From: Escherichia phage JSE
Strand: one strand, 5' to 3'
DNA length: 64,000 nt
Sequence record: EU863408
The notes under the pieces are model-generated. The model ran no database searches and had not been told where the DNA came from. It saw only the letters and a program-made list of their open reading frames with translations. Positions within the stretch are counted from its first letter, which is position 1. Every line of letters begins with the position of its first letter. The translations under genes and the position numbers were made by a program. Shown in pieces: positions 3,934 through 63,047 of this stretch.

Positions 3934-4407
3934 CTATTTGTTAAGCCCTTTAAAGCCAAACACTTTCTTTAATGCATGTTCGGTGATGATCTTAAACTCC
4001 ATGTTATGCTTTTGGCATAATTTCACGGCAGCTAACCATTTTTCAGTATTTTTTGTGTATGTCCATACTTCATGCATATATCGTTGCTTTGTCTTCGCGG
4101 TCATTCTTTTTGGCTTTTCCGGTGGCCTTGTCTCTTTAGCTGGTTTAACTTCCCATAAATGCTCCTTGCCATCATCAAACTTAACGTAAAAATCCATAAA
4201 GTATCTGTGTCTTTTTCCGTCTGTTGATGACTCATAAGGAATTACTACGGTCTCAGATCCCCATTTTGCAACTCTAGGATTGCGGTCTAGCCACTGCATG
4301 ATCCATCTTTCCCAGCTTGAACGGTATGTGATCTTACGTATATCCCCTTTATACTTTTCCTTATTCTCAGGAACATACTTGCCCTTATAAGTGTTAGATC
4401 CTCCCAT
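3934..4407 (-). CDS. 4: head completion protein (gp4-like)
   Basis: 157 aa; YKGD..TYRS.WE...W signature recalled from T4 gp4. Confidence 0.8.
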   Translation of the reverse strand: MGGSNTYKGKYVPENKEKYKGDIRKITYRSSWERWIMQWLDRNPRVAKWGSETVVIPYESSTDGKRHRYFMDFYVKFDDGKEHLWEVKPAKETRPPEKPKRMTAKTKQRYMHEVWTYTKNTEKWLAAVKLCQKHNMEFKIITEHALKKVFGFKGLNK

Positions 4408-4422
4408 TTTAGCACCCTTTAT

Positions 4423-4430
4423 TATAAATA
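4423..4430 (+). promoter_or_regulatory. T4-type late promoter TATAAATA upstream of gene 53
   Basis: exact TATAAATA 33 nt before the ATG at 4463. Confidence 0.5.
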
Positions 4431-4462
4431 CATAATACTATTTATCAATTGAGGGTGATAAA

Positions 4463-5017
4463 ATGCTCTTTTCTTTCTTCCCTGCCATTGAATACAACGG
4501 CAAGATGATTACTGACATTGTGCGCAATTACCGCGCATATTTCAACGCAATAATTTCTGATTATAACATACAAACATATTACATTCAAGGTAGTCCACGA
4601 CCGGAACAAGTTGCATATGAAGTATACGGAAACCAACAACTTTACTGGATCTTGCTGATGCTTAATGACGTATACGATCCGTTCCATGACTGGATCACCG
4701 ATCAAGAGACAGCATATGAATCAGCCGAACAACGATATGCAAATGTCGGAGGAAATCAAGTATTATACCACGTTGATATTGACGGAAACAAGTATTGGAA
4801 TCTTACCGAATATCCGAAAGGATCAAGCAATTGGTATGATAAAGGGGATATTCATCACCGTCATTTGCAGTTTCATGGTGCATTGTCGGCAGTGGACACA
4901 CTGGAAGATGCGATCCTCCGTAATGAGGAACGACGCAAGATCAAGATCATAGATCCTACACAAATTAAACAATTTATTAACGCATTCATTCGAGAAATGG
5001 AAAAGGCTGATGTGTAA
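4463..5017 (+). CDS. 53: baseplate wedge protein gp53-like
   Basis: 184 aa; position before gene 5. Confidence 0.8.
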   Translation: MLFSFFPAIEYNGKMITDIVRNYRAYFNAIISDYNIQTYYIQGSPRPEQVAYEVYGNQQLYWILLMLNDVYDPFHDWITDQETAYESAEQRYANVGGNQVLYHVDIDGNKYWNLTEYPKGSSNWYDKGDIHHRHLQFHGALSAVDTLEDAILRNEERRKIKIIDPTQIKQFINAFIREMEKADV

Positions 5018-7696: not shown

Positions 7697-9597
7697 CAAA
7701 GCAAAAGATTACACAAATTCCTGATATTTTTAATGCTGCTACATTCGATGAAATTAAAAGCGCATTAACAGACTGGATGAGAAACCAGGAAGAATTTAAA
7801 GATTTTGATTTTAATGGTGCTGGTATTAACGTATTGATGGACTTGCTCGCATATAACACTCTGTATATTCAGCAATTCGCTAACGCCGCGCTATATGAAT
7901 CTTTTATCAGAACGGCAATTAAGCGTAGTTCAGTTGTTCAAGCCGCGCAAGATTTAGGATATTTGCCAGCAAGTAAAACTAGTGCATCGACTACAATTAT
8001 GTTGCACGTAACACATCCTCGAAATCCGGCAAGTATTCGAATCCCACGAGGAACTAAATTTATTGCAAGTGTGGATCGCCAGACGTCTTATCCGTTTGTG
8101 ACTACAGAAGACGTTGTGAGCGTTTTAGGTTCAAATGGTTTATATACGCCTATGCTTAAAGTCGCACAAGGTCGTATTGTTCGTACAGAAATGTTATTTG
8201 ATCCGAAGAAACAAATTCTGATCCGCGATCCTGATATTGACCGCGCTCAGGTTAAATTGTGGGTAGACGGTGCTGAATGGAAAGACTGGACACGAGAAAG
8301 CATTGTTAACGCAACTGGTGCAAGCAATATTTTCTATATGCGTGAAACCGTAGACGGTCATACAGAAATCTTCTTTGGTGAAGGTGAATCAACTTTATCT
8401 GCTGCTGGCGGTGCACTGGAAGCAAATTATATTGGTGGACTTAAGCCGTCAACTGGTGCTAATATTGTTATCGAATATATCAGCACTAAAGGCGCGGAAG
8501 CTAACGGATCTGTCAATTTCACATACGCGGATACATTGGCATCTATCTCTATTGTTAAAATTATTGAGAATCCGACAAATGATCGTGATTATGTCGGTGC
8601 AGATGGTGGTGGTGATCCTGAATCAATCGAACGTATCCGTGAACTTGCTCCGGTAATGCGTGAATCTCAGCGTCGTTGTGTTACTGCTTCTGACTATGAG
8701 GCTTTTGTATCTAGCCGTTTTGGTAGTATTGTTCAGGCGGTACAATGTTTCACCGACCGAGAAAAACCGGGTTATGCTTTTGTTGCTGTTAAGCCTAAAT
8801 CTGGCTTGCGTTTGACAACTGTTCAAAAAGAAGATATGCGGGATTATCTGGCAAAATATAATCTTGCCCCTATCACGCCGAGCATCATTGACCCAAACTA
8901 TCTGTATATTAAACAGAATATTAAAGTTTCCTATTCAATCAATGACTTGTCAGAATCAGAGCAGTGGTTGCGCGGTGCGGTTATTGATCAGATTGATGCA
9001 TATTATACCGACGAAGTGGAAATTTTTAACCAGACCTTTAGTAAGTCTAAAATGCTTGCTCGTATTGACAAAGCTGATGTATCTGTGATAGGTTCTAGTG
9101 CAGAAATCGAGATGGTGCGAGAGATCGACAACTTCTATAAAGCACCTATGGCTGGAATCAAGTTTTTAAACCAGTATAAGAGCGGAATCAAGTCTAGTTC
9201 ATTCAACTTCGAAAAGGACGACAAGCAATATCCGATCCATTATGTAAGTACAGAAATGAACAAAGAATCCGGTTTAGCTAAATTGCTGGTTGGACCTTTC
9301 CCTGTTGGTTCTGCAATCGCTTTACCGCACTATTCCGGCACTGATTTTGATAAAGAGGTTATCGACGGTGCGGACCTATACTTTGAGGTTGGAGAGGTTC
9401 AGCATTATGACGACCTTATTTCATGGGATCTGGGTAAACTGAATATCAATAGCGATCGCTTTACTGGTTCATATATTGAGTTGACAGCTAAACCGATTGC
9501 TGATAACATCTTTACTAAAGACGGTTCTTTGATCGTGTTTGAAAACGATCTCCGTCCTCAGTACACAACTATTAGTCTGGAGGCAATTGCTCAATGA
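7693..9597 (+). CDS. 6: baseplate wedge protein gp6-like
   Basis: 634 aa; order 5-6-7-8. Confidence 0.8.
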
Positions 9598-14356: not shown

Positions 14357-15195
14357 TGGCACGACTTTCTAAACAAGAACAAAAATTACACGATCGGGTG
14401 ATGGAGTTGATTAATTCAGATCGCCCATTGACATATGAAGAAAAAGAATTTTGCTATAATAACTATCATGGCGATGGTCTAGGCGGTTCAGGTGCATTCT
14501 TTACCCCAGAAGGGCTTGCATGGGATTTTACCATCGATGCACATTGCACAGGAAAAGTATTAGATCTTTGTGCTGGGATCGGTCGCTTATCTTTTTGTAT
14601 GTTACATCGTTGTAAGCCAGAAAAGATCGTATGCGTCGAACTCAATCCAGAATTTGCGCGGATTGGCAAGAGACTATTACCGGAGGCAGAATGGATCACC
14701 AGCGATGTATTCGAATTTGAGTCAAACGAAAAATTCGATGTGGTGATCAGCAATCCACCTTTCGGGAAAATCAATACAACCGACACAAAGGATGTATTTG
14801 AGTACACTGGCGGCGAATTTGAATTTAAGGTTATGACATTAGGCCAGAAGTTTGCCGATGTAGGTTATTTTATTGTTCCTACTGGTTCCGCTGGTTTTGC
14901 TTATTCCGGCAGACCTTATTATGACGGGAGCATGAAGTCTAATAAATATCTAAAATGGAGCAAACAAACTGGTTTGGTGACTTACGCCGGATGTGGGATC
15001 GATACATCAATCTATCGCGATGAATGGCATAGTACCAACGTTTTAACAGAAGTGGTTGAGGTTCGGTATTACGAGAAAGAAGCTGTAGAAGCGCCTAAAT
15101 CACGTCCTAACGAACAAATAGAAGAAAGTAAGGAGATTACCTTACCGAAACAGGAAAGCGAGTCTGGGACGCTCTCAGATTTGTTTGACATTTAA
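14356..15195 (+). CDS. SAM-dependent amino-methyltransferase, probably N6-adenine DNA MTase
   Basis: 279 aa; motif I VLDLCAGIGRL then motif IV NPPFG. Confidence 0.6.
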   Translation: MARLSKQEQKLHDRVMELINSDRPLTYEEKEFCYNNYHGDGLGGSGAFFTPEGLAWDFTIDAHCTGKVLDLCAGIGRLSFCMLHRCKPEKIVCVELNPEFARIGKRLLPEAEWITSDVFEFESNEKFDVVISNPPFGKINTTDTKDVFEYTGGEFEFKVMTLGQKFADVGYFIVPTGSAGFAYSGRPYYDGSMKSNKYLKWSKQTGLVTYAGCGIDTSIYRDEWHSTNVLTEVVEVRYYEKEAVEAPKSRPNEQIEESKEITLPKQESESGTLSDLFDI

Positions 15196-52902: not shown

Positions 52903-52940
52903 TAACAGAAAACGGGGCTAGTATAAAACTAGTCCCCGTT
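52903..52940 (-). terminator. intrinsic terminator after alt
   Basis: minus-strand ACGGGGACTAG-loop-CTAGCCCCGT followed by TTTTCTGTT. Confidence 0.5.
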
Positions 52941-52965
52941 TGAGTCAACCATTATTTCTTAAAAA

Positions 52966-55061: not shown

Positions 55062-55085
55062 ACGGGGCTTAACGCCCCTTTTTAT
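55062..55085. terminator. hairpin terminator separating the hyperplastic region from alt
   Basis: GGGGC-ttaac-GCCCC with T-runs on both strands. Confidence 0.5.
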
Positions 55086-55297: not shown

Positions 55298-55333
55298 TTG
55301 ATACTCCTTAGTAGTTCGTTTCTGTATGGGTGT

Positions 55334-55362
55334 ATTATGATATACACCCTCTGTTATGTCAA
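55334..55362 (-). promoter_or_regulatory. repeated early-promoter cassette, copy A
   Basis: minus-strand TTGACA-N17-CATAAT; dyad GGGTGTAT/ATACACCC over the -10. Confidence 0.5.
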
Positions 55363-55368
55363 CAACTT

Positions 55369-55548
55369 TTAGAACATTTTTGAAATTAATTCTGCTTTGA
55401 TTTCGCAGAGAACATCTAAAGATTTCTCGTCACCCGCTTTTGCTGCTTCTGCTTGCATTTTTGAAATGGCTTCAATCTCAGTGCAATTATAAGCCGCTTG
55501 AACTTTAGCGATTGCGATGATTGCCGATTCGATGGTTAAGTGTTTCAT
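55369..55548 (-). CDS. hypothetical protein (59 aa)
   Basis: conserved 5' leader GGAGAATCAAAC before ATG; below ORF-track cutoff. Confidence 0.45.
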   Translation of the reverse strand: MKHLTIESAIIAIAKVQAAYNCTEIEAISKMQAEAAKAGDEKSLDVLCEIKAELISKMF

Positions 55549-55580: not shown

Positions 55581-55609
55581 ATTATAGGGGATCGATGATC
55601 CCCTGTCAA
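55581..55609 (-). promoter_or_regulatory. repeated early-promoter cassette, copy B
   Basis: minus-strand TTGACA-GGGGATCATCGATCCCC-TATAAT. Confidence 0.55.
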
Positions 55610-55617
55610 CAACTTTT

Positions 55618-56136
55618 TTAGTTATTTTTTAATTGCTCATCTTGCAATAGGGCAATCACATGCTGGCGATGTTCTTCCGATTGAGGCACACCGAAAAAGT
55701 TTGTTTTGTAGAAATACTCTAATCGGTCTTCTCGTGTGCTCTCTTCCATCATGATCGCGGGTAGTCCGAGATTTCGGAAACGTCGCTTTTCTGCTGGCGT
55801 AAAATCACTGTAATACAACATAGAATCATCATTACCAGCAATGCTAAACTCATCCTTCATAAAGGAGAATATTGCGTTTAAACGCTGTTTACCGTCCACG
55901 ATTTCGATCTCATAGCGAGAGCCATCATCAATCTTAGCCATTGCGATAGCACCAACCGGAAAATCATTAATCAGGTTTTCGATAAACATACGTTTGTTTT
56001 CTGTGTCCCATACTAAAGGACGCTGATAATCTGGGTTCATGTTGATATAGCCATCTTCTAACCATGCATCATAAACAGAGATGACAAAGTTTTTAGTATT
56101 GGTATAGTAACGGCGTTTAGGCGTTAAACGGTTCAT
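55618..56136 (-). CDS. DUF262 (ParB-like nuclease/NTPase fold) domain protein
   Basis: 172 aa from internal ATG (MNRLTP); motifs PDYQRPLVWD, FPVGAI, VDGKQRLNAIFSF; ATG 1 nt after the upstream stop. Confidence 0.6.
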   Translation of the reverse strand: MNRLTPKRRYYTNTKNFVISVYDAWLEDGYINMNPDYQRPLVWDTENKRMFIENLINDFPVGAIAMAKIDDGSRYEIEIVDGKQRLNAIFSFMKDEFSIAGNDDSMLYYSDFTPAEKRRFRNLGLPAIMMEESTREDRLEYFYKTNFFGVPQSEEHRQHVIALLQDEQLKNN

Positions 56137-56137
56137 G

Positions 56138-56467
56138 TTATAGTCTCCTGAATGGATCATCACGTAAATCAATATCTTTTAAGAACTCATCCCATGAATG
56201 CCGGATATTGTTCTTAATTCTCCAGATAAGCGCAGGGATTGAACGCTCTCCCATCTGGAAGTAAGGATCATATGATCCGTATGCCCAATATGCTACTACA
56301 ATTCCACAATCAGCGCAATAGTATTCTATTTCACTTGCTGGCGACCAAAGTCCATCAATATGATCGGTGATCTTGCTTTCGATGTTATGGCTATGACAAT
56401 CAGGGCAACGGATGCAATGACCTTGTTTATCGTAATTTGACGTTAGCGAATACTTAAACAATCTCAT
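56138..56467 (-). CDS. hypothetical Zn-ribbon protein
   Basis: 109 aa; CIRCPDCH ... CADCG. Confidence 0.5.
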   Translation of the reverse strand: MRLFKYSLTSNYDKQGHCIRCPDCHSHNIESKITDHIDGLWSPASEIEYYCADCGIVVAYWAYGSYDPYFQMGERSIPALIWRIKNNIRHSWDEFLKDIDLRDDPFRRL

Positions 56468-57183
56468 TATAGATCCTTATTTGCTTCAAATACTGCCTTT
56501 GCGAATCCTCGCGGGGTAAGTGACCTTATAGTCTTTGTTTTCGTTCCTTTCCCGCCTAGCTTAGAATGCTGTTTACTGTACCCTTTATTAATCTGCAACG
56601 GTTTCTTTTCTGGCATTATAAAGCCTTGTCCGGACCATAAGCAAGTCTTTTTCGGGTACATATCACGGGCGGCAATATACTCAGGAAACGTAGGATGCTT
56701 ATCATCTTCCGGCAAATAACCGCCATATTCCCACGGATGGAACATATAATCAGGCTTACGCCACATGCTAGAGATAACGCTTACAGGATTCTCTATCATG
56801 TAGGGAACTCCTAGCCATTCACCCAAATAAGCGGTTATTTTAGCTGCCCTTACATCATGAACTTGAATCAATGGTCCTTGCTCTCGTTTCTTTCGTTCAA
56901 AGTGTGCAGCGCCACTAACAGCTAAATTGGTGCACGGTGGGAATGCAAAGATAATATCCGGTTTCCCCCATTCAAGGTCCATTGCTCTTTCCAGCCAGTT
57001 CAAATCAATCCAGGTGTTTACATAGGTAATGTTTGGATGTTCAAATCTGGTATTATACTTTTTGTATGTACCGTGGTCGGCGTCATCCGCATTAAAGCAG
57101 ACTACCTTATGACCTGCTTTAGCCCATTCTAGCCCCATTATCCCCGATCCGTCAAAGTTGCAGAATATTAATTTTTGTTTCAC
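56467..57183 (-). CDS. compact C5-cytosine methyltransferase-like protein
   Basis: 238 aa, GTG start; motif I-like FDGSGIMGL, motif IV DIIFAFPPCTNLAVSG, motif VI-like MIENPVSV; no obvious TRD. Confidence 0.45.
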   Translation of the reverse strand: MKQKLIFCNFDGSGIMGLEWAKAGHKVVCFNADDADHGTYKKYNTRFEHPNITYVNTWIDLNWLERAMDLEWGKPDIIFAFPPCTNLAVSGAAHFERKKREQGPLIQVHDVRAAKITAYLGEWLGVPYMIENPVSVISSMWRKPDYMFHPWEYGGYLPEDDKHPTFPEYIAARDMYPKKTCLWSGQGFIMPEKKPLQINKGYSKQHSKLGGKGTKTKTIRSLTPRGFAKAVFEANKDL

Positions 57184-57431
57184 GCTGCCCCCATTGGTTT
57201 GATAGTAACAGAATCTAAAAGACCTTTGTTAGCCAGTTCGCGGCAAGTTTTCAGATCCGCAACTTCCCAGCCAGCCGCAATCAGGTTATCAATGAGGCTG
57301 TTAGCAACTTCTTCGCTCATGAAAGAGCACTGTTTGCCGATGGTGTAGCGTACACGCTGTAATTTCAGTTTACGGAAGCCTTTAACGTTCAGGTCTTTAG
57401 CGATTTTCTTTGCGGTTTCGATGTTAGCCAT
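57180..57431 (-). CDS. hypothetical protein (MANIE N-terminus)
   Basis: 83 aa; stop overlaps the start of the methyltransferase-like gene. Confidence 0.5.
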   Translation of the reverse strand: MANIETAKKIAKDLNVKGFRKLKLQRVRYTIGKQCSFMSEEVANSLIDNLIAAGWEVADLKTCRELANKGLLDSVTIKPMGAA

Positions 57432-57471
57432 TGTTTGATTCTCCTAAGTGGTATCTCGTCTTGATGGTTGT

Positions 57472-57500
57472 ATTGTAGGGGAGTTATCCTCCCCTGTCAA
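57472..57500 (-). promoter_or_regulatory. repeated early-promoter cassette, copy C
   Basis: minus-strand TTGACA-GGGGAGGATAACTCCCC-TACAAT. Confidence 0.5.
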
Positions 57501-57514
57501 CACTTTTTATAAAA

Positions 57515-57682
57515 TTATTTGTTAATTTCTGGTGCGTTGCTAGGATAGTAACCTTCTTTAACTCCGAGATATTTCGCAACCATCCCTACAATCTTCTGTG
57601 CTACTACAATGTCAAATTTCAGATAATCTTCGCCGTGGGTTTCAATGATATATGCTTCACATGCTGCTTTAGTCTCGAACAT
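57515..57682 (-). CDS. hypothetical protein (55 aa), paralog of 60994-61161
   Basis: MFETKAACEAYIIETHGEDYLKFDIVVAQK...; near-identical second copy. Confidence 0.5.
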   Translation of the reverse strand: MFETKAACEAYIIETHGEDYLKFDIVVAQKIVGMVAKYLGVKEGYYPSNAPEINK

Positions 57683-57715
57683 TTTGATTCTCCTATTTCG
57701 TTTCGGTATGTGTGT

Positions 57716-57744
57716 ATTATAGGGGATCGGTGATCCCCTGTCAA
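57716..57744 (-). promoter_or_regulatory. repeated early-promoter cassette, copy D
   Basis: minus-strand TTGACA-GGGGATCACCGATCCCC-TATAAT. Confidence 0.55.
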
Positions 57745-57750
57745 CAACTT

Positions 57751-58062
57751 TTAGCGACGGCGACGATGTTTTTTGCGAGTTGCCTTTTTGTATGCTTTAT
57801 ATGCCTTTTTACCGTTTTTATATGCTTTTTTGGTATATGATTGATTTTTCTTATTGTTTTTGTATGTTTCCCGGTCAGTATTAATTTCGTTACATTCCAC
57901 GAAACGGTGTCGATGTTCTTGTGGTATGATCAAACATTTATCATAATTAACCATTTCGTTTTTCGTTGTTTGTGGTTTCTTTGGTGTGTTGTTTGCACTA
58001 ACAGACCCAGCAAAGAGAATGAGTATAGCGGTCATTAACGCAAACATTGTTTTCTTAATCAT
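57751..58062 (-). CDS. secreted small protein with lysine/arginine-rich tail
   Basis: 103 aa; N-terminal signal peptide; C-terminal KKAYKNGKKAYKAYKKATRKKHRRRR. Confidence 0.5.
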   Translation of the reverse strand: MIKKTMFALMTAILILFAGSVSANNTPKKPQTTKNEMVNYDKCLIIPQEHRHRFVECNEINTDRETYKNNKKNQSYTKKAYKNGKKAYKAYKKATRKKHRRRR

Positions 58063-58120
58063 AATATTCTCCTTTAGTTTCTGCGGGAGTGTGAATATAA
58101 CACTCCCTTAATATTTTGTA

Positions 58121-58402
58121 TTATTCGTGATTAGTTTCGATGTTGTGCATTTTGCACCAGTTCAGCCAATCGCCCAGATCTTGATAGTTAATGCTTTTAT
58201 CTGCTGCCATCGTTTTTGTCTTGATACCCATATGTGCGTTATGAGTAAGCATTTTTACAGTGAACTCGATTTTATCGCCTTTAGCTTTAACATCAACCAG
58301 TTTGGTCCACTGGCTACCAGCACCGCGAATGTTCATACCAACGATGTTTCCGATGTATGCTTCTTTGTTTTTCAGGATTTCGGTTGCTTTGATGAATTTC
58401 AT
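58121..58402 (-). CDS. hypothetical protein
   Basis: 93 aa; conserved leader before ATG. Confidence 0.5.
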   Translation of the reverse strand: MKFIKATEILKNKEAYIGNIVGMNIRGAGSQWTKLVDVKAKGDKIEFTVKMLTHNAHMGIKTKTMAADKSINYQDLGDWLNWCKMHNIETNHE

Positions 58403-58435
58403 TTTTGATTCTCCAGTTCGTTTCGGTATGGGTGT

Positions 58436-58464
58436 ATTATGCTATGTTCTTACTTTGGTGTCAA
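58436..58464 (-). promoter_or_regulatory. repeated early-promoter cassette, copy E
   Basis: minus-strand TTGACA-N17-CATAAT. Confidence 0.5.
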
Positions 58465-58473
58465 CAACTTTTT

Positions 58474-58743
58474 TTAGATATTTTCAGAAATAAATTTTAA
58501 AACTTGACGTAAATGTTTCTCATCTTTGATGGTAGCCGGAAGTTCTTCTTTTACTTCCTGTGCAAGATAGATATTTCCGTTCCAAGTGAAAGATCCGTCT
58601 TCGTTTACTCGATAGCTGAACATCCACTCGCAATCATTTTCGATTTCATATACACACAGAAGGGTGTAATCGTTAAAGCTATTGATTTCAAGGTCGAAGC
58701 CGTGACGTTTTGCAAAGTTGGTAGTGGTTTTAGTCAGTACCAT
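58474..58743 (-). CDS. hypothetical protein
   Basis: 89 aa; conserved leader. Confidence 0.5.
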   Translation of the reverse strand: MVLTKTTTNFAKRHGFDLEINSFNDYTLLCVYEIENDCEWMFSYRVNEDGSFTWNGNIYLAQEVKEELPATIKDEKHLRQVLKFISENI

Positions 58744-58783
58744 TGTTTGATTCTCCTAAGTGGTATCTCGTCTTGATGGGTGT

Positions 58784-58812
58784 ATTATGCTATACACAGG
58801 ATCTGGTGTCAA
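58784..58812 (-). promoter_or_regulatory. repeated early-promoter cassette, copy F
   Basis: minus-strand TTGACA-N17-CATAAT. Confidence 0.5.
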
Positions 58813-58840
58813 TGCCTTTTTTAAAATTTTATGCAATAAA

Positions 58841-58866
58841 AAAGCCGACGCTAAGGTCGGCTAATA
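58841..58866 (-). terminator. intrinsic terminator (minus strand)
   Basis: minus-strand AGCCGACC-ttagc-GTCGGCT followed by TTTTTTATT. Confidence 0.55.
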
Positions 58867-58869
58867 AAA

Positions 58870-59177
58870 TCATTTAGACAAATAATCATTCAGTGCAATC
58901 CGGTCGGCGTATGCTGGTGTTACGTCAATCGCAATCACTTTAACGCGTGCTTTCTTGCGACCTGGGTTTTCTCGTAACCAGTGCTCATGACCGTGAACAT
59001 TTTATACTGCGATGCTTCTTCGAAAGTACGGATCGGACAAGGGTAATCAGCGTAAAGGATCTCTAGGTCTTCGGTGATGTAAAAATATACATCATAATTA
59101 CTGTTCTCTAGTTTAAGCAGAGACTTTCGGAACATTGGGAGATTTTCGCGGGTAAATTCAAAGATATTATCTTTCAT
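58870..59177 (-). CDS. HxHW-family small protein, frameshifted at a 4-nt homopolymer (59000-59003)
   Basis: N-part in ORF 58935-59177; C-part (NVHGHEHW...VKVIAIDVTPAYAD...) in another frame; adding one A joins them. Confidence 0.4.
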
Positions 59178-59201
59178 AGTATTATCCTCAATAGTTGGAT
59201 G

Positions 59202-59223
59202 AAAAGGGGGGCTTAATGCCCCG
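59202..59223 (-). terminator. intrinsic terminator (minus strand)
   Basis: minus-strand GGGGC-atta-GCCCC followed by CTTTT. Confidence 0.45.
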
Positions 59224-59227
59224 TATA

Positions 59228-59515
59228 TTAAAACAGTCCTTCCTGTACACCGTAGTAGAGTTCATCGCTGATAATTTCATTAATGCGACGGTGTGCATAT
59301 TCCTGATTTGCGAAGTTGTCAGCAAGTTCTACTTTAGTTTCGCCATCATGAGTCCATTTAGTGATAACTTTACCATCGGCAAATTTGAAGTTGAACTCTT
59401 TAGCTACCGCATCGCGTACCAGACGTGCAAACTTATTGTTGCGGATTGCATTGTCGGTTTCGTGTGCAGCGTGAGCGAATTTGTTAACTTTCAGAGTGAT
59501 AGTAATGTATGCCAT
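59228..59515 (-). CDS. hypothetical protein (KEFN family)
   Basis: 95 aa; shares VR.A.AKEFN.K with 62649-62960. Confidence 0.5.
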   Translation of the reverse strand: MAYITITLKVNKFAHAAHETDNAIRNNKFARLVRDAVAKEFNFKFADGKVITKWTHDGETKVELADNFANQEYAHRRINEIISDELYYGVQEGLF

Positions 59516-59562
59516 AATTTGATTCTCCTAGTTAGAAAGTGTATCTCGTTTCGACGGGTGTA

Positions 59563-59591
59563 TTATGCTATACACCCGATCCATTGTCAAC
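59563..59591 (-). promoter_or_regulatory. repeated early-promoter cassette, copy G
   Basis: minus-strand TTGACA-N17-CATAAT; dyad GGGTGTA/TACACCC over the -10. Confidence 0.5.
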
Positions 59592-59922
59592 GCCTTTTTA
59601 TAAAATAATTTTCGATATCTTTATGATGTTTTTCTCGTGCTTGGTCTGCCTCGGCTGGCGATACGTTGGAAGCGATAATCTTCACTACTGTTGCACCTTT
59701 TTCGGTGTCCGACACCCAATGATTATGGAAACCGCTATTATTAAACACTTGATAAGAAAATGATTTAATGTTAGGGAAATTATAAGTGTAATAACGTACC
59801 CTTAATTCTGAATCTACGTATAGATAGATCACCGCACCTAGATAGACCGTCTCACTCGTTCCGTCAACTAACAGTAGAGTATTTCGCAATTCTTCTAAAT
59901 TGTCTTTTGTAAGAAAAATCAT
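59587..59922 (-). CDS. HxHW-family small protein
   Basis: 111 aa; FHNHW...VKIIASNVSPAEAD. Confidence 0.5.
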   Translation of the reverse strand: MIFLTKDNLEELRNTLLLVDGTSETVYLGAVIYLYVDSELRVRYYTYNFPNIKSFSYQVFNNSGFHNHWVSDTEKGATVVKIIASNVSPAEADQAREKHHKDIENYFIKRR

Positions 59923-59936
59923 AGTATAATCCTCAA

Positions 59937-60260
59937 TTAAACCAAATTAACTTTGGTGTTGTGGTGGTTTTCTCGTGCGTCGTCCGCTTCTTCCGGTGTC
60001 ACGTTACGAGCGACGACAATAACACTTGCTGCCTCTCCGTGATGATAGATCTCTACCCAATGGTTATGATTTGCGAATCCGTGTTTTATTGCGTAAGCGA
60101 ACGGCTTAGACGTCCAGTAGTAACTATAATATCGTACATTTAGATCGCTATCAATGTACAAATATGTGCTGTCGTTTACATTGCCACTAACAACAAAAAC
60201 AAGACAATTGCGAAGATCTGACAATATTTTGTCTGTCAATTTTATAATGTGACTGTTCAT
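59937..60260 (-). CDS. HxHW-family small protein
   Basis: 107 aa from ATG at 60260 (track ORF begins at a GTG, 60272); NHNHW...VIVVARNVTPEEAD. Confidence 0.45.
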   Translation of the reverse strand: MNSHIIKLTDKILSDLRNCLVFVVSGNVNDSTYLYIDSDLNVRYYSYYWTSKPFAYAIKHGFANHNHWVEIYHHGEAASVIVVARNVTPEEADDARENHHNTKVNLV

Positions 60261-60262
60261 AA

Positions 60263-60478
60263 TTAACACCACTCAAGAGTTTTTGAAAACACATCTATCC
60301 ATTGTTGAGTATATGCGGTTTCTTTCCATGACACAATACCAGTCGAATAATGGTTTTTGTTTCCAGAAAAGGACGGGCATTTTGATGCATCTTCCATCAT
60401 CTTTTCGGCGAACTCTGGTTCGTATACCCGCAGAATCTGTTGATATGCTTTGTATTCTTTAAATTTGCTCATAATCAT
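60263..60478 (-). CDS. hypothetical protein
   Basis: 71 aa; overlaps both neighbours in other frames. Confidence 0.35.
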   Translation of the reverse strand: MIMSKFKEYKAYQQILRVYEPEFAEKMMEDASKCPSFSGNKNHYSTGIVSWKETAYTQQWIDVFSKTLEWC

Positions 60479-60737
60479 TCACTACCTTATCAGCTTCTTT
60501 TGTTGTTTTTACATCAACTGCGATAACCCGTAAAGGTTCGTCATGGTTCCACCAATGATCGTGAATATCGGCTTGTGATTTATCACCAAAGGAATCACGA
60601 ATATCATTTTTACATTTATAGCTAATGTGACCGTCATAGTCAACATAAAGGTAATTATCGAAAATCGGCGTTTTTAAGATCATACCGAAAAATCTTTCTT
60701 TGTGTGTCTTATCCAGTGTTGCAGTAATTCGCATCAT
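60459..60737 (-). CDS. HxHW-family small protein
   Basis: 92 aa; HDHWW...RVIAVDVKTTKEAD. Confidence 0.5.
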   Translation of the reverse strand: MMRITATLDKTHKERFFGMILKTPIFDNYLYVDYDGHISYKCKNDIRDSFGDKSQADIHDHWWNHDEPLRVIAVDVKTTKEADKVVNDYEQI

Positions 60738-60749
60738 AATATATTCCTC

Positions 60750-60929
60750 TTAGAAAGGGATGGTCATTTCTTGAGCTTGTACATTCTCGTTAGGATTAAA
60801 CTTCATCCAACCGATATTGTCTACCAGCATATGCACATTTTTATCATATCCTACGTGGGTAGTCAATACTGTATGTGCTTTACCTTCAACGATGATTTCC
60901 ATGTACTTCTGAACTTCGATAGCTTTCAT
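60750..60929 (-). CDS. hypothetical protein (59 aa)
   Basis: conserved leader GGAGAATCAAA before ATG. Confidence 0.4.
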   Translation of the reverse strand: MKAIEVQKYMEIIVEGKAHTVLTTHVGYDKNVHMLVDNIGWMKFNPNENVQAQEMTIPF

Positions 60930-60961
60930 TTTGATTCTCCGTTTGTTGTCTTGATGGGAGT

Positions 60962-60990
60962 ATCTTACTACTCCCTTTAATCATTGTCAA
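60962..60990 (-). promoter_or_regulatory. repeated early-promoter cassette, copy H (divergent)
   Basis: minus-strand TTGACA-N17-TAAGAT; dyad GGGAGTAGTA/TACTCCC. Confidence 0.4.
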
Positions 60991-60993
60991 CTA

Positions 60994-61161
60994 TTATTTG
61001 TTAATTTCCGGTGCGTTGCTTGGATAGTAGCCTTCTTTAACACCCAGATATTTTGCAACCATTCCGGTGATCTTCTGTGCTACTACGATATCGAATTTCA
61101 GGTAGTCTTCACCGTGGTTTGCTACAATGTATGCTTCGCATTCTGCTTTAGTCTGGAACAT
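60994..61161 (-). CDS. hypothetical protein (55 aa), paralog of 57515-57682
   Basis: starts at the internal ATG (MFQTKAECEAYIVANHGEDYLKFDIVVAQK...) after the conserved leader. Confidence 0.5.
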   Translation of the reverse strand: MFQTKAECEAYIVANHGEDYLKFDIVVAQKITGMVAKYLGVKEGYYPSNAPEINK

Positions 61162-61195
61162 TTTTGATTCTCCTATATCTCGTTGGTATGTGTGC

Positions 61196-61224
61196 ATTAT
61201 AGGGGATCACCGATCCCCTGTCAA
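61196..61224 (-). promoter_or_regulatory. repeated early-promoter cassette, copy I
   Basis: minus-strand TTGACA-GGGGATCGGTGATCCCC-TATAAT. Confidence 0.55.
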
Positions 61225-61229
61225 CAACT

Positions 61230-61524
61230 TTATAATGCTTTATATGCGTATTTCATAAATTTGTCTGCCACTTCATTGGCATGTTCAGATTCTACGCCTG
61301 ATTCGAGAACAATAGCTAGGTCGGTTTCGTCATTCCCGCCGTACCAATGATTTGATGTTCGATTTTTTTCAATTGGAAATTGGTCACTTTTATCTGTGCG
61401 ACAAAATACATCTAAATGCTCATCGATGTAAAAGATCCAATCTTCATAAAGAATAACGGGTATTAGCAAGATTTTTATTGCCTTCAACGAAAGGTTCGGC
61501 TACAAACAAATTAGTATGTTCCAT
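61230..61524 (-). CDS. hypothetical protein, frameshifted at a 5-nt homopolymer (61472-61476)
   Basis: ATG at 61522-61524 with GAGGA opens a 26-codon frame; removing one T joins it to ORF 61230-61487. Confidence 0.35.
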
Positions 61525-61540
61525 AGTAATTTCCTCAAAA

Positions 61541-61732
61541 TTATACAGCTTCGTAAACTTCCCAATGTCCAACACCAGCACGCTTAACGAAAAGGTTTTC
61601 TTTGATGTTATTCATAAACGTCTGGATGGATTTAATGCGGTTTGAAGGTTTCCATTCTTCGTTGGAATTGCGGCGATACATAATAACATTACCAGTTCGC
61701 TTATATTCAGCAACCATTTTAAGACAACACAT
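61541..61732 (-). CDS. hypothetical protein
   Basis: 63 aa; GAGGATAAT before ATG. Confidence 0.45.
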   Translation of the reverse strand: MCCLKMVAEYKRTGNVIMYRRNSNEEWKPSNRIKSIQTFMNNIKENLFVKRAGVGHWEVYEAV

Positions 61733-61780
61733 AATATTATCCTCAATTTGTGGGAGAGTATTACCCCTCCCGATGTTGTT

Positions 61781-61809
61781 ATATTACATTACACAAAATG
61801 GCGTGTCAA
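61781..61809 (-). promoter_or_regulatory. repeated early-promoter cassette, copy J (variant with 5'-UTR hairpin)
   Basis: minus-strand TTGACA-N17-TAATAT followed by hairpin GGGAGGGGTAATACTCTCCC. Confidence 0.4.
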
Positions 61810-62109
61810 TGCTTCTTTTGCGGTTCCGCTAAGACTTTCGATCTCGCCTGGCATAACATCAACCGCCAGAACTTCTACAACATCCTCGGACCCTAACCAG
61901 TGAGTATGGCCTTTGTAGAACTTGATAACCAGACTACCTTCCTCGTCCCATTTAACGCTATCGCTAGCCCACCACACATCACCGTCGATAAAGTTGATGT
62001 AAAGCACACTACGCCACATTGAATTAATTACTTTCAATACTGCGCCTTTCATCTCTTCCACGGTATGGTCTTCCATTTTGAAGACCTCACCTACCTGAAC
62101 TTTTGCCAT
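61789..62109 (-). CDS. HxHW-family small protein
   Basis: 106 aa from internal ATG (MAKVQVGEV...); GHTHW...VVEVLAVDV. Confidence 0.5.
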   Translation of the reverse strand: MAKVQVGEVFKMEDHTVEEMKGAVLKVINSMWRSVLYINFIDGDVWWASDSVKWDEEGSLVIKFYKGHTHWLGSEDVVEVLAVDVMPGEIESLSGTAKEALTRHFV

Positions 62110-62110
62110 G

Positions 62111-62377
62111 TTACATGCTCCGAATATGTTTAGCTGCATCTTCCAGTTCGTCGATAGTGACACTGTGTGCCAGTAAGTGTACTGGTTGTGGTTCTTCACC
62201 TTCCATAGTATTGATCAGATGACCGTTTCCTGGGTGGAATGTATCGTTGCCGTTCCAAATAGCATACACATCATCTTCTGTTACGTAGATAATAAGTCCA
62301 ATCGGTGATTCTGGTAATTGAAAAATTTTACCCACTGCATCTTTGCGATTGTTTACGATATCTTTTACTGTCTTCAT
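62111..62377 (-). CDS. hypothetical protein (distant HxHW relative?)
   Basis: 88 aa; stop lies 1 nt before the next ATG. Confidence 0.45.
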   Translation of the reverse strand: MKTVKDIVNNRKDAVGKIFQLPESPIGLIIYVTEDDVYAIWNGNDTFHPGNGHLINTMEGEEPQPVHLLAHSVTIDELEDAAKHIRSM

Positions 62378-62396
62378 TTAGTTACCTCTCGTTAAA

Positions 62397-62576
62397 TTAC
62401 ATCACAATCACGCCAGCCGTTGAAAGTTGATGTTTCAACTGAGCATTTTCTGCTACTGTCAAATCAATGATTTCTTGTGACGCTGCAATCATATAGCCAT
62501 TGGTGATATTGTTTTGCATCAGTTCAATGGTTTCTTCGTTGTAGCGGATTTTAGCGATGATTTCGTTGAAGTTCAT
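62397..62576 (-). CDS. hypothetical protein (59 aa)
   Basis: conserved leader GGAGAATCAAAC before ATG. Confidence 0.4.
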   Translation of the reverse strand: MNFNEIIAKIRYNEETIELMQNNITNGYMIAASQEIIDLTVAENAQLKHQLSTAGVIVM

Positions 62577-62610
62577 GTTTGATTCTCCTAGTTCGTTTCG
62601 GTATGTGTGT

Positions 62611-62640
62611 ATTATAGGGGAGTTTAACCTCCCCTGTCAA
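62611..62640 (-). promoter_or_regulatory. repeated early-promoter cassette, copy K
   Basis: minus-strand TTGACA-GGGGAGGTTAAACTCCCC-TATAAT (18-nt spacer). Confidence 0.5.
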
Positions 62641-62648
62641 CAACTTTT

Positions 62649-62960
62649 TTAAAGTTTTTCCATGATAACGGTCATAATTACATCTTCTGCGCGAGCGGTC
62701 AGATTATCAGCGTCAGCATGTGGGCGGTTGGTTGTTACAGAGATAACACCGTTGCGCACTGGTTTGATATTGATATCAAGATGATCCGCGAAACGTTCGC
62801 CAGTTACAGAATGAATTTTGGTGTTAAATTCTTTTGCCAGTGCCTTGCGAACTTCACGAATCAGGATAGCGTTTTTCAGTTGGTTCTCCGCGCTCATGGT
62901 CTTCTGGGTGTTCATGGTTCCGTCGAAGTCAATCATTGGCAGCGTTACGATGTATTTCAT
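62649..62960 (-). CDS. hypothetical protein (KEFN family)
   Basis: 103 aa; shares VRKALAKEFNTK with 59228-59515. Confidence 0.5.
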   Translation of the reverse strand: MKYIVTLPMIDFDGTMNTQKTMSAENQLKNAILIREVRKALAKEFNTKIHSVTGERFADHLDINIKPVRNGVISVTTNRPHADADNLTARAEDVIMTVIMEKL

Positions 62961-63004
62961 TTTTGATTCTCCGTTTAAGAAAGTGTGTTTCGTTTTGATG
63001 TGTG

Positions 63005-63033
63005 TAGTATAGGGGATACGTGATCCCCTGTCA
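63005..63033 (-). promoter_or_regulatory. repeated early-promoter cassette, copy L
   Basis: minus-strand TTGACA-GGGGATCACGTATCCCC-TATACT. Confidence 0.5.
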
Positions 63034-63047
63034 ACAACTTTTTTGAA

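What the first reader, a model, noticed from the sequence alone, without database searches (positions are those of the whole stretch)
55587..63027. Promoter spacers hold a perfect palindrome maintained by compensatory substitutions
In copies B, D, I and L the spacer between -35 and -10 is a 17-nt palindrome GGGGATC-NNN-GATCCCC. In copies C and K it is GGGGAG-...-CTCCCC: both arms changed together, preserving the dyad. Copies A and G carry a different dyad (GGGTGTA...TACACCC) over the -10. Paired changes argue for selection on a structure or a dimeric protein-binding site (an operator), not only on the promoter hexamers. On read-through transcripts the same sequence would form an RNA hairpin.
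Basis: seen in the sequence. Interest (0 to 1): 0.55.

Follow-up and report, generated by a model that had tools for sequence, protein, structure and literature searches.

The report
Known phage promoter/stem-loop cassettes (PeSLs)
The palindromes inside these promoters are real, but they are the already published "PeSL" early-promoter/stem-loop cassettes of RB49-like T4-type phages, and two copies in this window are letter-for-letter identical to cassettes tested experimentally in 2010.

Summary
The window is a Krischvirus (RB49-like T4-type coliphage). Positions 55.3-63.0 kb hold a minus-strand array of small early genes. Each gene is preceded by a ~70-90 nt cassette: AT-rich region, TTGACA-N17/18-TATAAT, conserved leader, SD. 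The spacer palindromes are there. GGGGATC-N3-GATCCCC is perfect in 3 copies, not 4; copy L has one broken pair. GGGGAG..CTCCCC occurs in 2 copies, and a GGGTGTAT..ATACACCC dyad spans the -10 in 2.

This is the PeSL (promoter-early stem-loop) element of Arbiol et al. 2010 and Comeau et al. 2014. [quoted passage not shown] Copy L is 87/87 identical to RB49 PeSL211/210, whose stem-loop was tested as a terminator. Copy I is 68/68 identical to PeSL206/205, tested as a promoter.

"Compensatory substitution" is thin: one covarying pair in the spacer class and two in the -10 class. Orthologous promoters swap whole stem alleles together with their flanks, which points to cassette recombination.

An operator is not supported. 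Arm spacing varies (loops of 3-6 nt), arm sequences are unrelated between classes, and the dyad's position relative to the hexamers varies. One orthologous promoter has no dyad in all 11 genomes that carry it.

Verdict: real, already known, low interest.

The parts
55334..55362 (-). Copy A: early promoter TTGACA-N17-CATAAT. Its stem-loop GGGTGTAT-atcata-ATACACCC (55328-55349) spans the -10.
   Evidence: I15; z = -3.0
55581..55609 (-). Copy B: TTGACA-N17-TATAAT. The spacer is the perfect palindrome GGGGATC-atc-GATCCCC; the 8-bp stem is 55586-55604.
   Evidence: I18; -14.8 kcal/mol, z = -3.7
57472..57500 (-). Copy C: TTGACA-N17-TACAAT with spacer GGGGAG-gataa-CTCCCC (57477-57495).
   Evidence: z = -5.0
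57716..57744 (-). Copy D: TTGACA-N17-TATAAT with spacer GGGGATC-acc-GATCCCC (57721-57739).
   Evidence: (I19)
58085..58107 (-). Stem-loop GGGAGTGT-N7-ACACTCCC of a degraded cassette with weak hexamers. It corresponds in position to RB49 PeSL193/192.
   Evidence: 44/68 identity to RB49 PeSL193/192
58436..58464 (-). Copy E: TTGACA-N17-CATAAT promoter with no dyad. It is conserved without a dyad in all 11 genomes that carry it.
   Evidence: group 6; z = +0.1
58780..58812 (-). Copy F: TTGACA-N17-CATAAT with only a weak 6-bp dyad GTGTAT..ATACAC. Most relatives have none.
   Evidence: group 5; z = -1.05
58843..58862 (-). Canonical intrinsic terminator AGCCGAC-cttagc-GTCGGCT followed by TTTTTATT, immediately upstream of copy F.
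   Evidence: An equivalent terminator is annotated in GEC-3S and G37-3.
59555..59590 (-). Copy G: TTGACA-N17-CATAAT. The 9-bp stem CGGGTGTAT-agcata-ATACACCCG (59555-59578) spans the -10.
   Evidence: I10; z = -3.75
60956..60990 (-). Copy H: TTGACA-N17-TAAGAT with stem GGGAGTA-gtaaga-TACTCCC (60956-60975) over the -10.
   Evidence: I7; z = -4.3
61196..61224 (-). Copy I: TTGACA-N17-TATAAT with spacer GGGGATC-ggt-GATCCCC (61201-61219). The cassette is 68/68 identical to RB49 PeSL206/205.
   Evidence: (I20)
61752..61809 (-). Copy J: TTGACA-N17-TAATAT with a GGGAG..CTCCC stem-loop (61752-61771) downstream of the -10.
   Evidence: promoter; the stem is read directly from the sequence
62611..62640 (-). 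Copy K: TTGACA-N18-TATAAT with spacer GGGGAG-gttaaa-CTCCCC (62616-62635).
   Evidence: (I11)
63006..63034 (-). Copy L: TTGACA-N17-TATACT with an imperfect spacer dyad GGGGAT-cacgt-ATCCCC (63011-63029). The intergenic cassette 62961-63047 is 87/87 identical to RB49 PeSL211/210.
   Evidence: (z = -1.8)
59208..59222 (-). Promoter-less terminator-like hairpin GGGGCATTAAGCCCC followed by CCTTTTC, in an intergenic gap of the same array.
55064..55078 (-). Terminator-like hairpin GGGGCGTTAAGCCCC followed by GTTTTC, at the end of the array just upstream of alt.
   Evidence: annotated as a terminator in relatives

Best explanation
These are PeSL (promoter-early stem-loop) cassettes of an RB49-like phage (Krischvirus). 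Each is a ~70-90 nt repeated intergenic module with five parts:
- the stop codon of the upstream ORFan inside an AT-rich UP-like tract;
- a near-consensus sigma70 early promoter;
- a G(n)-loop-C(n) stem-loop placed in the spacer, across the -10, or nearby;
- a conserved leader;
- a GGAG Shine-Dalgarno sequence.

The promoter fires on its own. The dyad is not in its own transcript when it lies in the spacer. It is transcribed only by polymerases reading through from the upstream gene, where it folds as an RNA hairpin 10-40 nt after the stop codon. There it terminates or attenuates transcription, insulating each small transcription unit (inferred in general; shown for one cassette in the literature).

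Because the cassettes are repeats, they recombine with one another. This swaps stem alleles between loci, deletes or inserts the genes between them, and keeps both arms changing together.
For: Identity of the phage and region. The best matches are Krischvirus genomes at 94-97% identity. The array is collinear with RB49 ORF185-211, the hyperplastic region studied by Arbiol et al..

Literature. [quoted passage not shown] It reports a lacZ test of the PeSL211/210 stem-loop comparable with rrnB T1, and promoter activity of PeSL206/205. PMC4122927 gives the RB49/phi1 consensus as GN-loop-CN.

Identity of the copies. Window copies L and I are 87/87 and 68/68 identical to those two tested cassettes.

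Structure.
- Stems fold at -11 to -19 kcal/mol, with z from -1.8 to -5.0 (-2.6 to -5.0 without copy L). The dyad-less copy gives z = +0.1.
- 98% of cells pair, against 39-62% when the partners are slid.
- Loops vary freely (acc, ggt, atc, ggga, gataa, gttaaa) while stems do not.
- There are compensatory double changes at an orthologous -10 stem.
- Internal non-Watson-Crick pairs are G.U on the sense strand: 3, against 1 A.C that is really a bulge.

Functional slot. Where the promoter lacks a dyad (copy F and its orthologues), a canonical terminator sits about 30 nt upstream. The promoter at 52948 overlaps a canonical terminator with a U tract.

Recombination.
- The same 39-nt allele occurs in three orthologue groups.
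- Orthologous promoters carry different alleles with co-segregating flanks.
- Chimeric cassettes mark deletions in G37-3 and JK32, which lack the ORF at 55369-55548, and in Cognac, which lacks everything between copies D and I.
Against: The spacer and -10 stem-loops are not canonical intrinsic terminators. They are followed by UAUAAUAC or AUACCGAAAC, not by a U tract, and the terminator scan does not call them. Only one stem-loop has been tested, in a plasmid reporter, and its details are in a supplement I could not read. The reduced lacZ signal could also reflect RNA processing. Covariation is statistically thin. Perfect palindromes are strand-symmetric, so DNA-level and RNA-level roles cannot be separated from sequence alone. 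One cassette (copy E) works without any stem-loop.
Confidence: 0.85

Rival explanations
1. Operator: the dyad is the binding site of a dimeric phage or host repressor that shuts off early promoters by occupying the spacer.
For: GGGGATC-N3-GATCCCC has the form of a dyad operator and lies where a bound protein would block RNA polymerase. No experiment excludes binding.
Against: Arm spacing varies (3-6 nt), even at orthologous promoters. Arm sequences are unrelated between classes. The position relative to the hexamers varies. One orthologous promoter lacks any dyad in all 11 genomes that carry it. No DNA-binding domain was found in the ten array proteins scanned. From general knowledge of T4-type phages, early-promoter shut-off works through modification of RNA polymerase and sigma, not through operators; no MotA or middle mode was found in RB49.
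Confidence: 0.04
2. DNA-level element: the GGGG..CCCC dyad extrudes as a hairpin or cruciform, or is bound by a recombination protein. This makes the cassette a recombination hot-spot responsible for mini-circles and gene shuffling. It could act alongside the RNA role.
For: Arbiol et al. themselves speculate about a GGGG...CCCC-binding recombination protein, and they mapped an RB49 mini-circle crossover to the loop. At orthologous sites with identical 45-60 nt flanks, the only difference is an exactly reverse-complemented loop (ACC versus GGT). The counts are 14 GGT, 10 ACC and 5 ATC, with no intermediates. Chimeric cassettes sit at deletion junctions.
Against: Ordinary homologous recombination over ~70-90 nt repeats explains the shuffling without any special structure. 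Loop 'flips' can equally be short gene-conversion tracts from a paralogue, since both loop alleles exist in every genome. The canonical terminators occupying the same slot argue for an RNA role.
Confidence: 0.15
3. No selection on the dyad itself: the palindromes persist through common descent and concerted evolution of a young repeat family. Perfect symmetry would be restored by template-switch (quasi-palindrome) mutation.
For: Five of 8 stem pairs never vary and only one pair covaries in the spacer class. Alleles are shared between paralogues. From general knowledge, quasi-palindrome correction changes one arm to match the other in a single event and was first described in T4.
Against: Non-homologous stems fill the same slot: GGGAGTA, GGGAGTGTC, AACGGGGACTAG, AGCCGAC. 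Loops diverge while stems do not. Analogous cassettes with other stem sequences exist in distant T4-like phages and in jumbo phages. One stem-loop has measured activity.
Confidence: 0.07
4. RNA 3'-end protector or processing barrier rather than terminator: read-through RNAs are cut, and the hairpin stabilises the upstream mRNA's 3' end.
For: There is no U tract after most stems. The hairpin lies 10-40 nt after each stop codon. A drop in reporter signal cannot distinguish termination from processing.
Against: There is no direct evidence. The published test was read as termination comparable with rrnB T1.
Confidence: 0.12

Closest known systems
PeSL (promoter-early stem-loop) cassettes of coliphages RB49 and phi1 (Arbiol et al. 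2010, PMC2839356; Comeau et al. 2014, PMC4122927)
   Same: Everything that defines them matches: a near-consensus TTGACA-N17-TATAAT promoter, an AT-rich upstream tract holding the upstream stop codon, a G(n)-loop-C(n) stem between -35 and -10 or over the -10, an SD and start codon at the 3' end, location in the alt-to-gene-30 hyperplastic region upstream of ORFans, and association with indels. Two copies are 100% identical to named, tested RB49 PeSLs.
   Different: Nothing essential. This phage carries a different assortment of alleles at some loci. For example, copy K has GGGGAG-gttaaa-CTCCCC where RB49 has GGGGATC-acc-GATCCCC.
PeSLs of T4/PST and KVP40/nt-1 (Comeau et al. 2014)
   Same: The same composite logic of early promoter plus stem-loop flanking variable ORFs.
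   Different: In those phages the stems are AGNA..TCNT or A3-4G3..C3T3-4 and lie just upstream of the promoter. The promoters are T4-type, not sigma70-consensus.
Rho-independent (intrinsic) terminators
   Same: A GC-rich hairpin shortly after a stop codon. Three canonical examples sit in equivalent slots of this same array.
   Different: The spacer and -10 stem-loops lack the U tract that defines intrinsic terminators.
Dyad-symmetric operators overlapping promoters (lac, lambda and LexA type)
   Same: An inverted repeat located between or over the promoter hexamers.
   Different: Operators keep a fixed half-site sequence and spacing and have a cognate repressor. Here the spacing, sequence and position all vary, and no repressor is evident.

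Membership tests
PeSL cassette (RB49/phi1 type) | sigma70-consensus early promoter TTGACA-N17-TATAAT | tested here: met
   Ten minus-strand sites between 55.3 and 63.0 kb match 11-12 of 12 hexamer positions with 17-18 nt spacers.
PeSL cassette (RB49/phi1 type) | Stem-loop, typically G(n)-loop-C(n), between -35 and -10, overlapping a hexamer, or immediately adjacent | tested here: met
   Six copies have it in the spacer, three have a strong one over the -10 and copy F a weak one, and one has it downstream. One copy has none.
PeSL cassette (RB49/phi1 type) | [quoted passage not shown] | tested here: met
   Upstream ORFs end 3-14 nt before the -35, or overlap it. GGAG plus ATG lie 25-50 nt after the -10.
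PeSL cassette (RB49/phi1 type) | Located in a hyperplastic region of a T4-like genome, upstream of ORFans | tested here: met
   The array is collinear with RB49 ORF185-211 between alt and gene 30. Seven of ten proteins scanned have no Pfam hit.
PeSL cassette (RB49/phi1 type) | Cassettes mark insertion, deletion and replacement junctions between close relatives | tested here: met
   Chimeric cassettes are seen in G37-3 and JK32 (the ORF at 55369-55548 is lost) and in Cognac (the segment between copies D and I is lost). Stem alleles are swapped at orthologous loci.
PeSL cassette (RB49/phi1 type) | Sequence homology to the published RB49/phi1 elements | tested here: met
   87/87 identical to PeSL211/210 and 68/68 identical to PeSL206/205.
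PeSL cassette (RB49/phi1 type) | Promoter activity and terminator/attenuator activity in vivo | not testable with these tools
   Reported in the literature for the two RB49 cassettes that are identical to window copies I and L. Not measured for the other copies.
Intrinsic (Rho-independent) terminator | GC-rich hairpin immediately followed by a U-rich tract | tested here: not met
   None of the spacer or -10 stem-loops passes the scan. Only 58862-58843, 59222-59208 and 55078-55064 do so on the minus strand.
Dyad operator of a dimeric repressor | Conserved half-site sequence at fixed spacing and fixed position relative to the promoter | tested here: not met
   Loops of 3, 4, 5 and 6 nt; at least six unrelated arm sequences; three positions relative to the hexamers; a dyad-less orthologue group.
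Dyad operator of a dimeric repressor | A cognate DNA-binding protein | tested here: inconclusive
   Pfam finds no DNA-binding domain in ten array proteins apart from a sub-threshold zinc ribbon. Most are ORFans, so absence is not shown.

The most novel reading that the evidence does not exclude
Besides their RNA role, the GGGG..CCCC dyads may be processed as DNA hairpins or cruciforms in vivo, by a structure-specific nuclease or a dedicated binding protein. This would produce the exact loop inversions (ACC versus GGT) seen at orthologous sites with identical flanks, and it would actively target recombination to the cassettes. The same design recurs in unrelated ~350-kb jumbo phages, which would make it a general phage device for shuffling genes.
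Probability: 0.1. Interest if true: 0.45.

Novelty: already known. Interest (0 to 1): 0.1.

Why it matters
It matters little as a discovery. The element, its two commonest stem-loop positions, its G(n)/C(n) stems, its proposed terminator role and even the idea of a binding protein were published in 2010 and 2014 for the closest relatives of this phage. Two copies here are identical to the cassettes tested then.

The check has two uses. It warns against reading paired arm changes in a recombining repeat family as stepwise compensatory evolution. It also shows that the mechanism is thinly tested: one stem-loop, in one reporter, with no U tract. A Term-seq experiment on an RB49-like infection would settle how these non-canonical hairpins act.

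Tried and rejected
It served as a negative control, not as a source of relatives.
- A family-anchored scan (AAGTTGTTGACA-N17-YATAATACAC) found only three Krischvirus loci (four matches), from two contigs, so relatives were taken from GenBank phage records instead.
- The MAFFT alignment of all 26 spacer-class variants (A1) put its gaps in the -35 instead of the loop, so it could not be used for pair counting. I restricted the count to ungapped 17-nt subsets (A2, A3).
- The Dam/GATC idea was rejected. GATC is not avoided in the window (374 observed, 341 expected). It is enriched in the promoter cores only because the copies are homologous. The GGGGAG alleles have no GATC at the same position.
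- An Rfam search of 52-64 kb found nothing relevant.
- The supplement of Arbiol 2010, which holds the terminator assay figure, and Desplats 2002, which holds the RB49 5'-end mapping, are not held in the library.
- The strand-asymmetry test (G.U versus A.C) has too few informative pairs to be decisive.

Full report
What is there. Genes in window 52-64 kb run on the minus strand. Read in that sense, twelve intergenic regions between 55.3 and 63.0 kb carry a repeated module. Its consensus is an A-rich tract ending in aaaGTTG, then TTGACA, a 17-18 nt spacer, TATAAT (or CATAAT, TATACT, TACAAT), the leader ACACACATACCGAAACGA, GGAGAATCAAA and ATG.

Check of the observation. GGGGATCNNNGATCCCC occurs three times, in B, D and I, against none in 100 shuffles. 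In each case it fills the spacer. The dyad is really 8 bp, because the last A of the -35 pairs with the first T of the -10. Copy L is mis-described: it reads GGGGATCACGTATCCCC, so its innermost pair is broken and its loop is 5 nt. C and K carry GGGGAG-N5/6-CTCCCC, and K has an 18-nt spacer. A and G carry GGGTGTAT-N6-ATACACCC across a CATAAT -10. H has GGGAGTA..TACTCCC over its -10, and J has a stem downstream of the -10. E has no dyad and F only a weak one. As RNA, the dyads fold at -11 to -19 kcal/mol, with z-scores from -1.8 (copy L) to -5.0. Copy E gives z = +0.1. As a control for chance, none of 170 unrelated phage promoters of the form TTGACA-N17-TATAATACACAC in IMG/VR has an outer spacer stem longer than 4 bp.

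Which phage it is. The region matches 62 phage records, the best being Krischvirus genomes at 94-97% identity: vB_EcoM_G37-3, UPWr_E1, Brandy, TB34, JK32 and RB49. The array is collinear with RB49 ORF185-211, which lies between alt and DNA ligase gene 30.

What is already published. Arbiol et al. 2010 (PMC2839356) described about 50 'PeSLs' (promoter-early stem-loops) per genome in RB49 and phi1. [quoted passage not shown] An SD and start codon close the 3' end. The authors proposed that the stem-loop terminates or attenuates transcription coming from upstream. They reported that the stem-loop of PeSL211/210 reduced lacZ expression about as much as rrnB T1, and that PeSL206/205 gave about 13,000 Miller units as a promoter. 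They showed that recombination between cassettes deletes, inserts and swaps ORFans and yields mini-circles. [quoted passage not shown] Comeau et al. 2014 (PMC4122927) gave the RB49/phi1 stem consensus as GN-loop-CN and extended PeSLs to T4/PST and KVP40/nt-1. The window's intergenic cassette 62961-63047 (copy L) is 87/87 identical to RB49 PeSL211/210. The copy I cassette is 68/68 identical to PeSL206/205. The finding is therefore a rediscovery.

How strong is 'compensatory'? I collected 125 cassettes from the window and 11 relatives and grouped them by downstream gene.
- In the 14 distinct 17-nt spacer-class variants, 98.2% of cells pair, against 39-62% when partners are slid. However, five of eight pairs never vary, one shows a G.U, and only one (U-A to G-C, the GGGGAT/GGGGAG difference) changes on both sides. 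69 of 500 shuffles do as well.
- In all 23 distinct CATAAT-class variants, two pairs change on both sides, in one allele: GGGTGTAT/ATACACCC versus GGGGATAT/ATATCCCC, at the orthologues of copy G. The covariation score is reached by 3 of 500 shuffles.
So covariation exists but rests on very few events.

Orthologous promoters also carry different alleles in different phages. Upstream of the copy K gene, the window and TB34 have GGGGAG-gttaaa-CTCCCC, RB49, UPWr_E1 and Brandy have GGGGATC-acc-GATCCCC, and GEC-3S has GGGGATC-ggga-GATCCCC. The UP element, the -10 variant and the start of the leader change along with the stem. One 39-nt allele occurs in three orthologue groups. The arms therefore 'change together' mainly because whole cassette alleles are exchanged.

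Structure or operator? Five points argue against a dimer-binding operator:
- Loops of 3, 4, 5 and 6 nt occur, so half-site spacing is not fixed.
- At least six unrelated arm sequences are used.
- The dyad sits in the spacer, over the -10, or after it.
- The copy E orthologue group has no dyad in any of the 11 genomes that carry it.
- The copy F group mostly has none either, but a canonical terminator (window 58862-58843; annotated in GEC-3S and G37-3) sits about 30 nt upstream of it.
That last point suggests the constant requirement is a hairpin at the end of the upstream transcription unit, not a particular DNA sequence. Each dyad lies 10-40 nt after the upstream stop codon. Internal non-Watson-Crick pairs are G.U on the sense strand in three variants, against one A.C that is really a bulge. 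This is suggestive but too few to decide. No DNA-binding domain was found in ten array proteins.

Caveats on the mechanism. The spacer and -10 stem-loops have no U tract and are not called by the terminator scan. Only three other hairpins in the array are canonical. The single published assay is a plasmid reporter whose figure I could not read. Termination is therefore the best-supported role but not proven for most copies. An RNA 3'-end stabiliser role or a DNA-level recombination role remains possible.

Evidence for shuffling in this data set. G37-3 and JK32 lack the 59-codon ORF at 55369-55548. In its place they have a chimeric cassette, with copy B's promoter joined to copy A's leader. Cognac lacks everything between copies D and I, and its junction has copy I's upstream flank joined to copy D's gene.

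Side observations.
- At orthologous sites with identical 45-60 nt flanks, the only difference can be an exactly reverse-complemented loop. RB49, the window and kaaroe have GGT where TB34 has ACC. Across all cassettes with the GGGGATC stem and a 3-nt loop the counts are 14 GGT, 10 ACC and 5 ATC, with no intermediates. This fits either loop inversion at a DNA hairpin or very short conversion tracts.
- Promoters with the same design occur in IMG/VR contigs of 173-366 kb and in Salmonella jumbo phage Munch. Examples are TTGACA-GGGGAT-N5-ATCCCC-TATAAT and dyads across the -10.

Verdict. The palindromes are real and non-random. They are already described, named and partly tested in the closest relatives. 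The RNA-hairpin reading matches the published model, and the operator reading is not supported.

Noticed in passing
window 57729-57731 versus 61209-61211; L158 (TB34) cassette at 14767 versus L001 (RB49) cassette at 10392: The 3-nt loop of the GGGGATC stem occurs as ACC or as its exact reverse complement GGT. At orthologous sites with identical 45-60 nt flanks, this is the only difference. Across 12 genomes the counts are 14 GGT, 10 ACC and 5 ATC, with no intermediates. This suggests loop inversion at a DNA hairpin, or very short gene-conversion tracts.
   Followed up: partly
L142, L143, L145, L150 (IMG/VR contigs of 173-366 kb); L164:5531-5559 (Salmonella phage Munch, 350 kb): PeSL-like promoters occur in jumbo phages unrelated to T4-like phages. 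Examples are TTGACA-GGGGAT-N5-ATCCCC-TATAAT, TGGGGAG-gaaa-CTCCCC with an 'acacacatcaac' leader, and dyads spanning the -10. The PeSL papers I read cover only T4-like phages.
   Followed up: partly
window 1-64000: GGCC is strongly under-represented: 21 observed against 73 expected from a second-order model (ratio 0.29). AGCT is moderately low (0.64). GATC is not avoided (374 versus 341). This could reflect avoidance of restriction sites.
   Followed up: no
window 55618-56172 (-) and 56467-57183 (-): The early array encodes a protein with a GmrSD_N (DUF262) domain (E = 6e-20). Two genes upstream of it (in the direction of transcription) is a 238-aa ORF that relatives annotate as DNA methyltransferase or Dcm, though Pfam gives no hit for it here.
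   Followed up: partly
window 61230-61581 (-): RB49 has a single 97-codon ORF here (RB49p206). This window shows two overlapping ORFs of 85 and 45 codons instead, which could be a frameshift, a pseudogene or a sequencing error.
   Followed up: no
L163 (Cognac) 4010-4538; L123 (G37-3) 8299-8371; L159 (JK32) 8299-8372: There are natural deletions with chimeric cassettes at the junction. Cognac lacks the ~3.5 kb between window copies D and I. G37-3 and JK32 lack the ORF at window 55369-55548.
   Followed up: yes
window 57515-57682 and 60994-61161 (-): The 55-codon gene downstream of copy D and the one downstream of copy I are paralogues (ATGTTCGAGACT... and ATGTTCCAGACT...). They form a direct gene duplication flanked by near-identical cassettes.
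   Followed up: partly
window 52920-52948 (-): The promoter TTGACT-N17-TATACT upstream of the second ADP-ribosyltransferase gene overlaps a canonical terminator, AACGGGGACTAG..CTAGCCCCGTT followed by TTTC. This arrangement is identical in all seven relatives that cover the site.
   Followed up: partly
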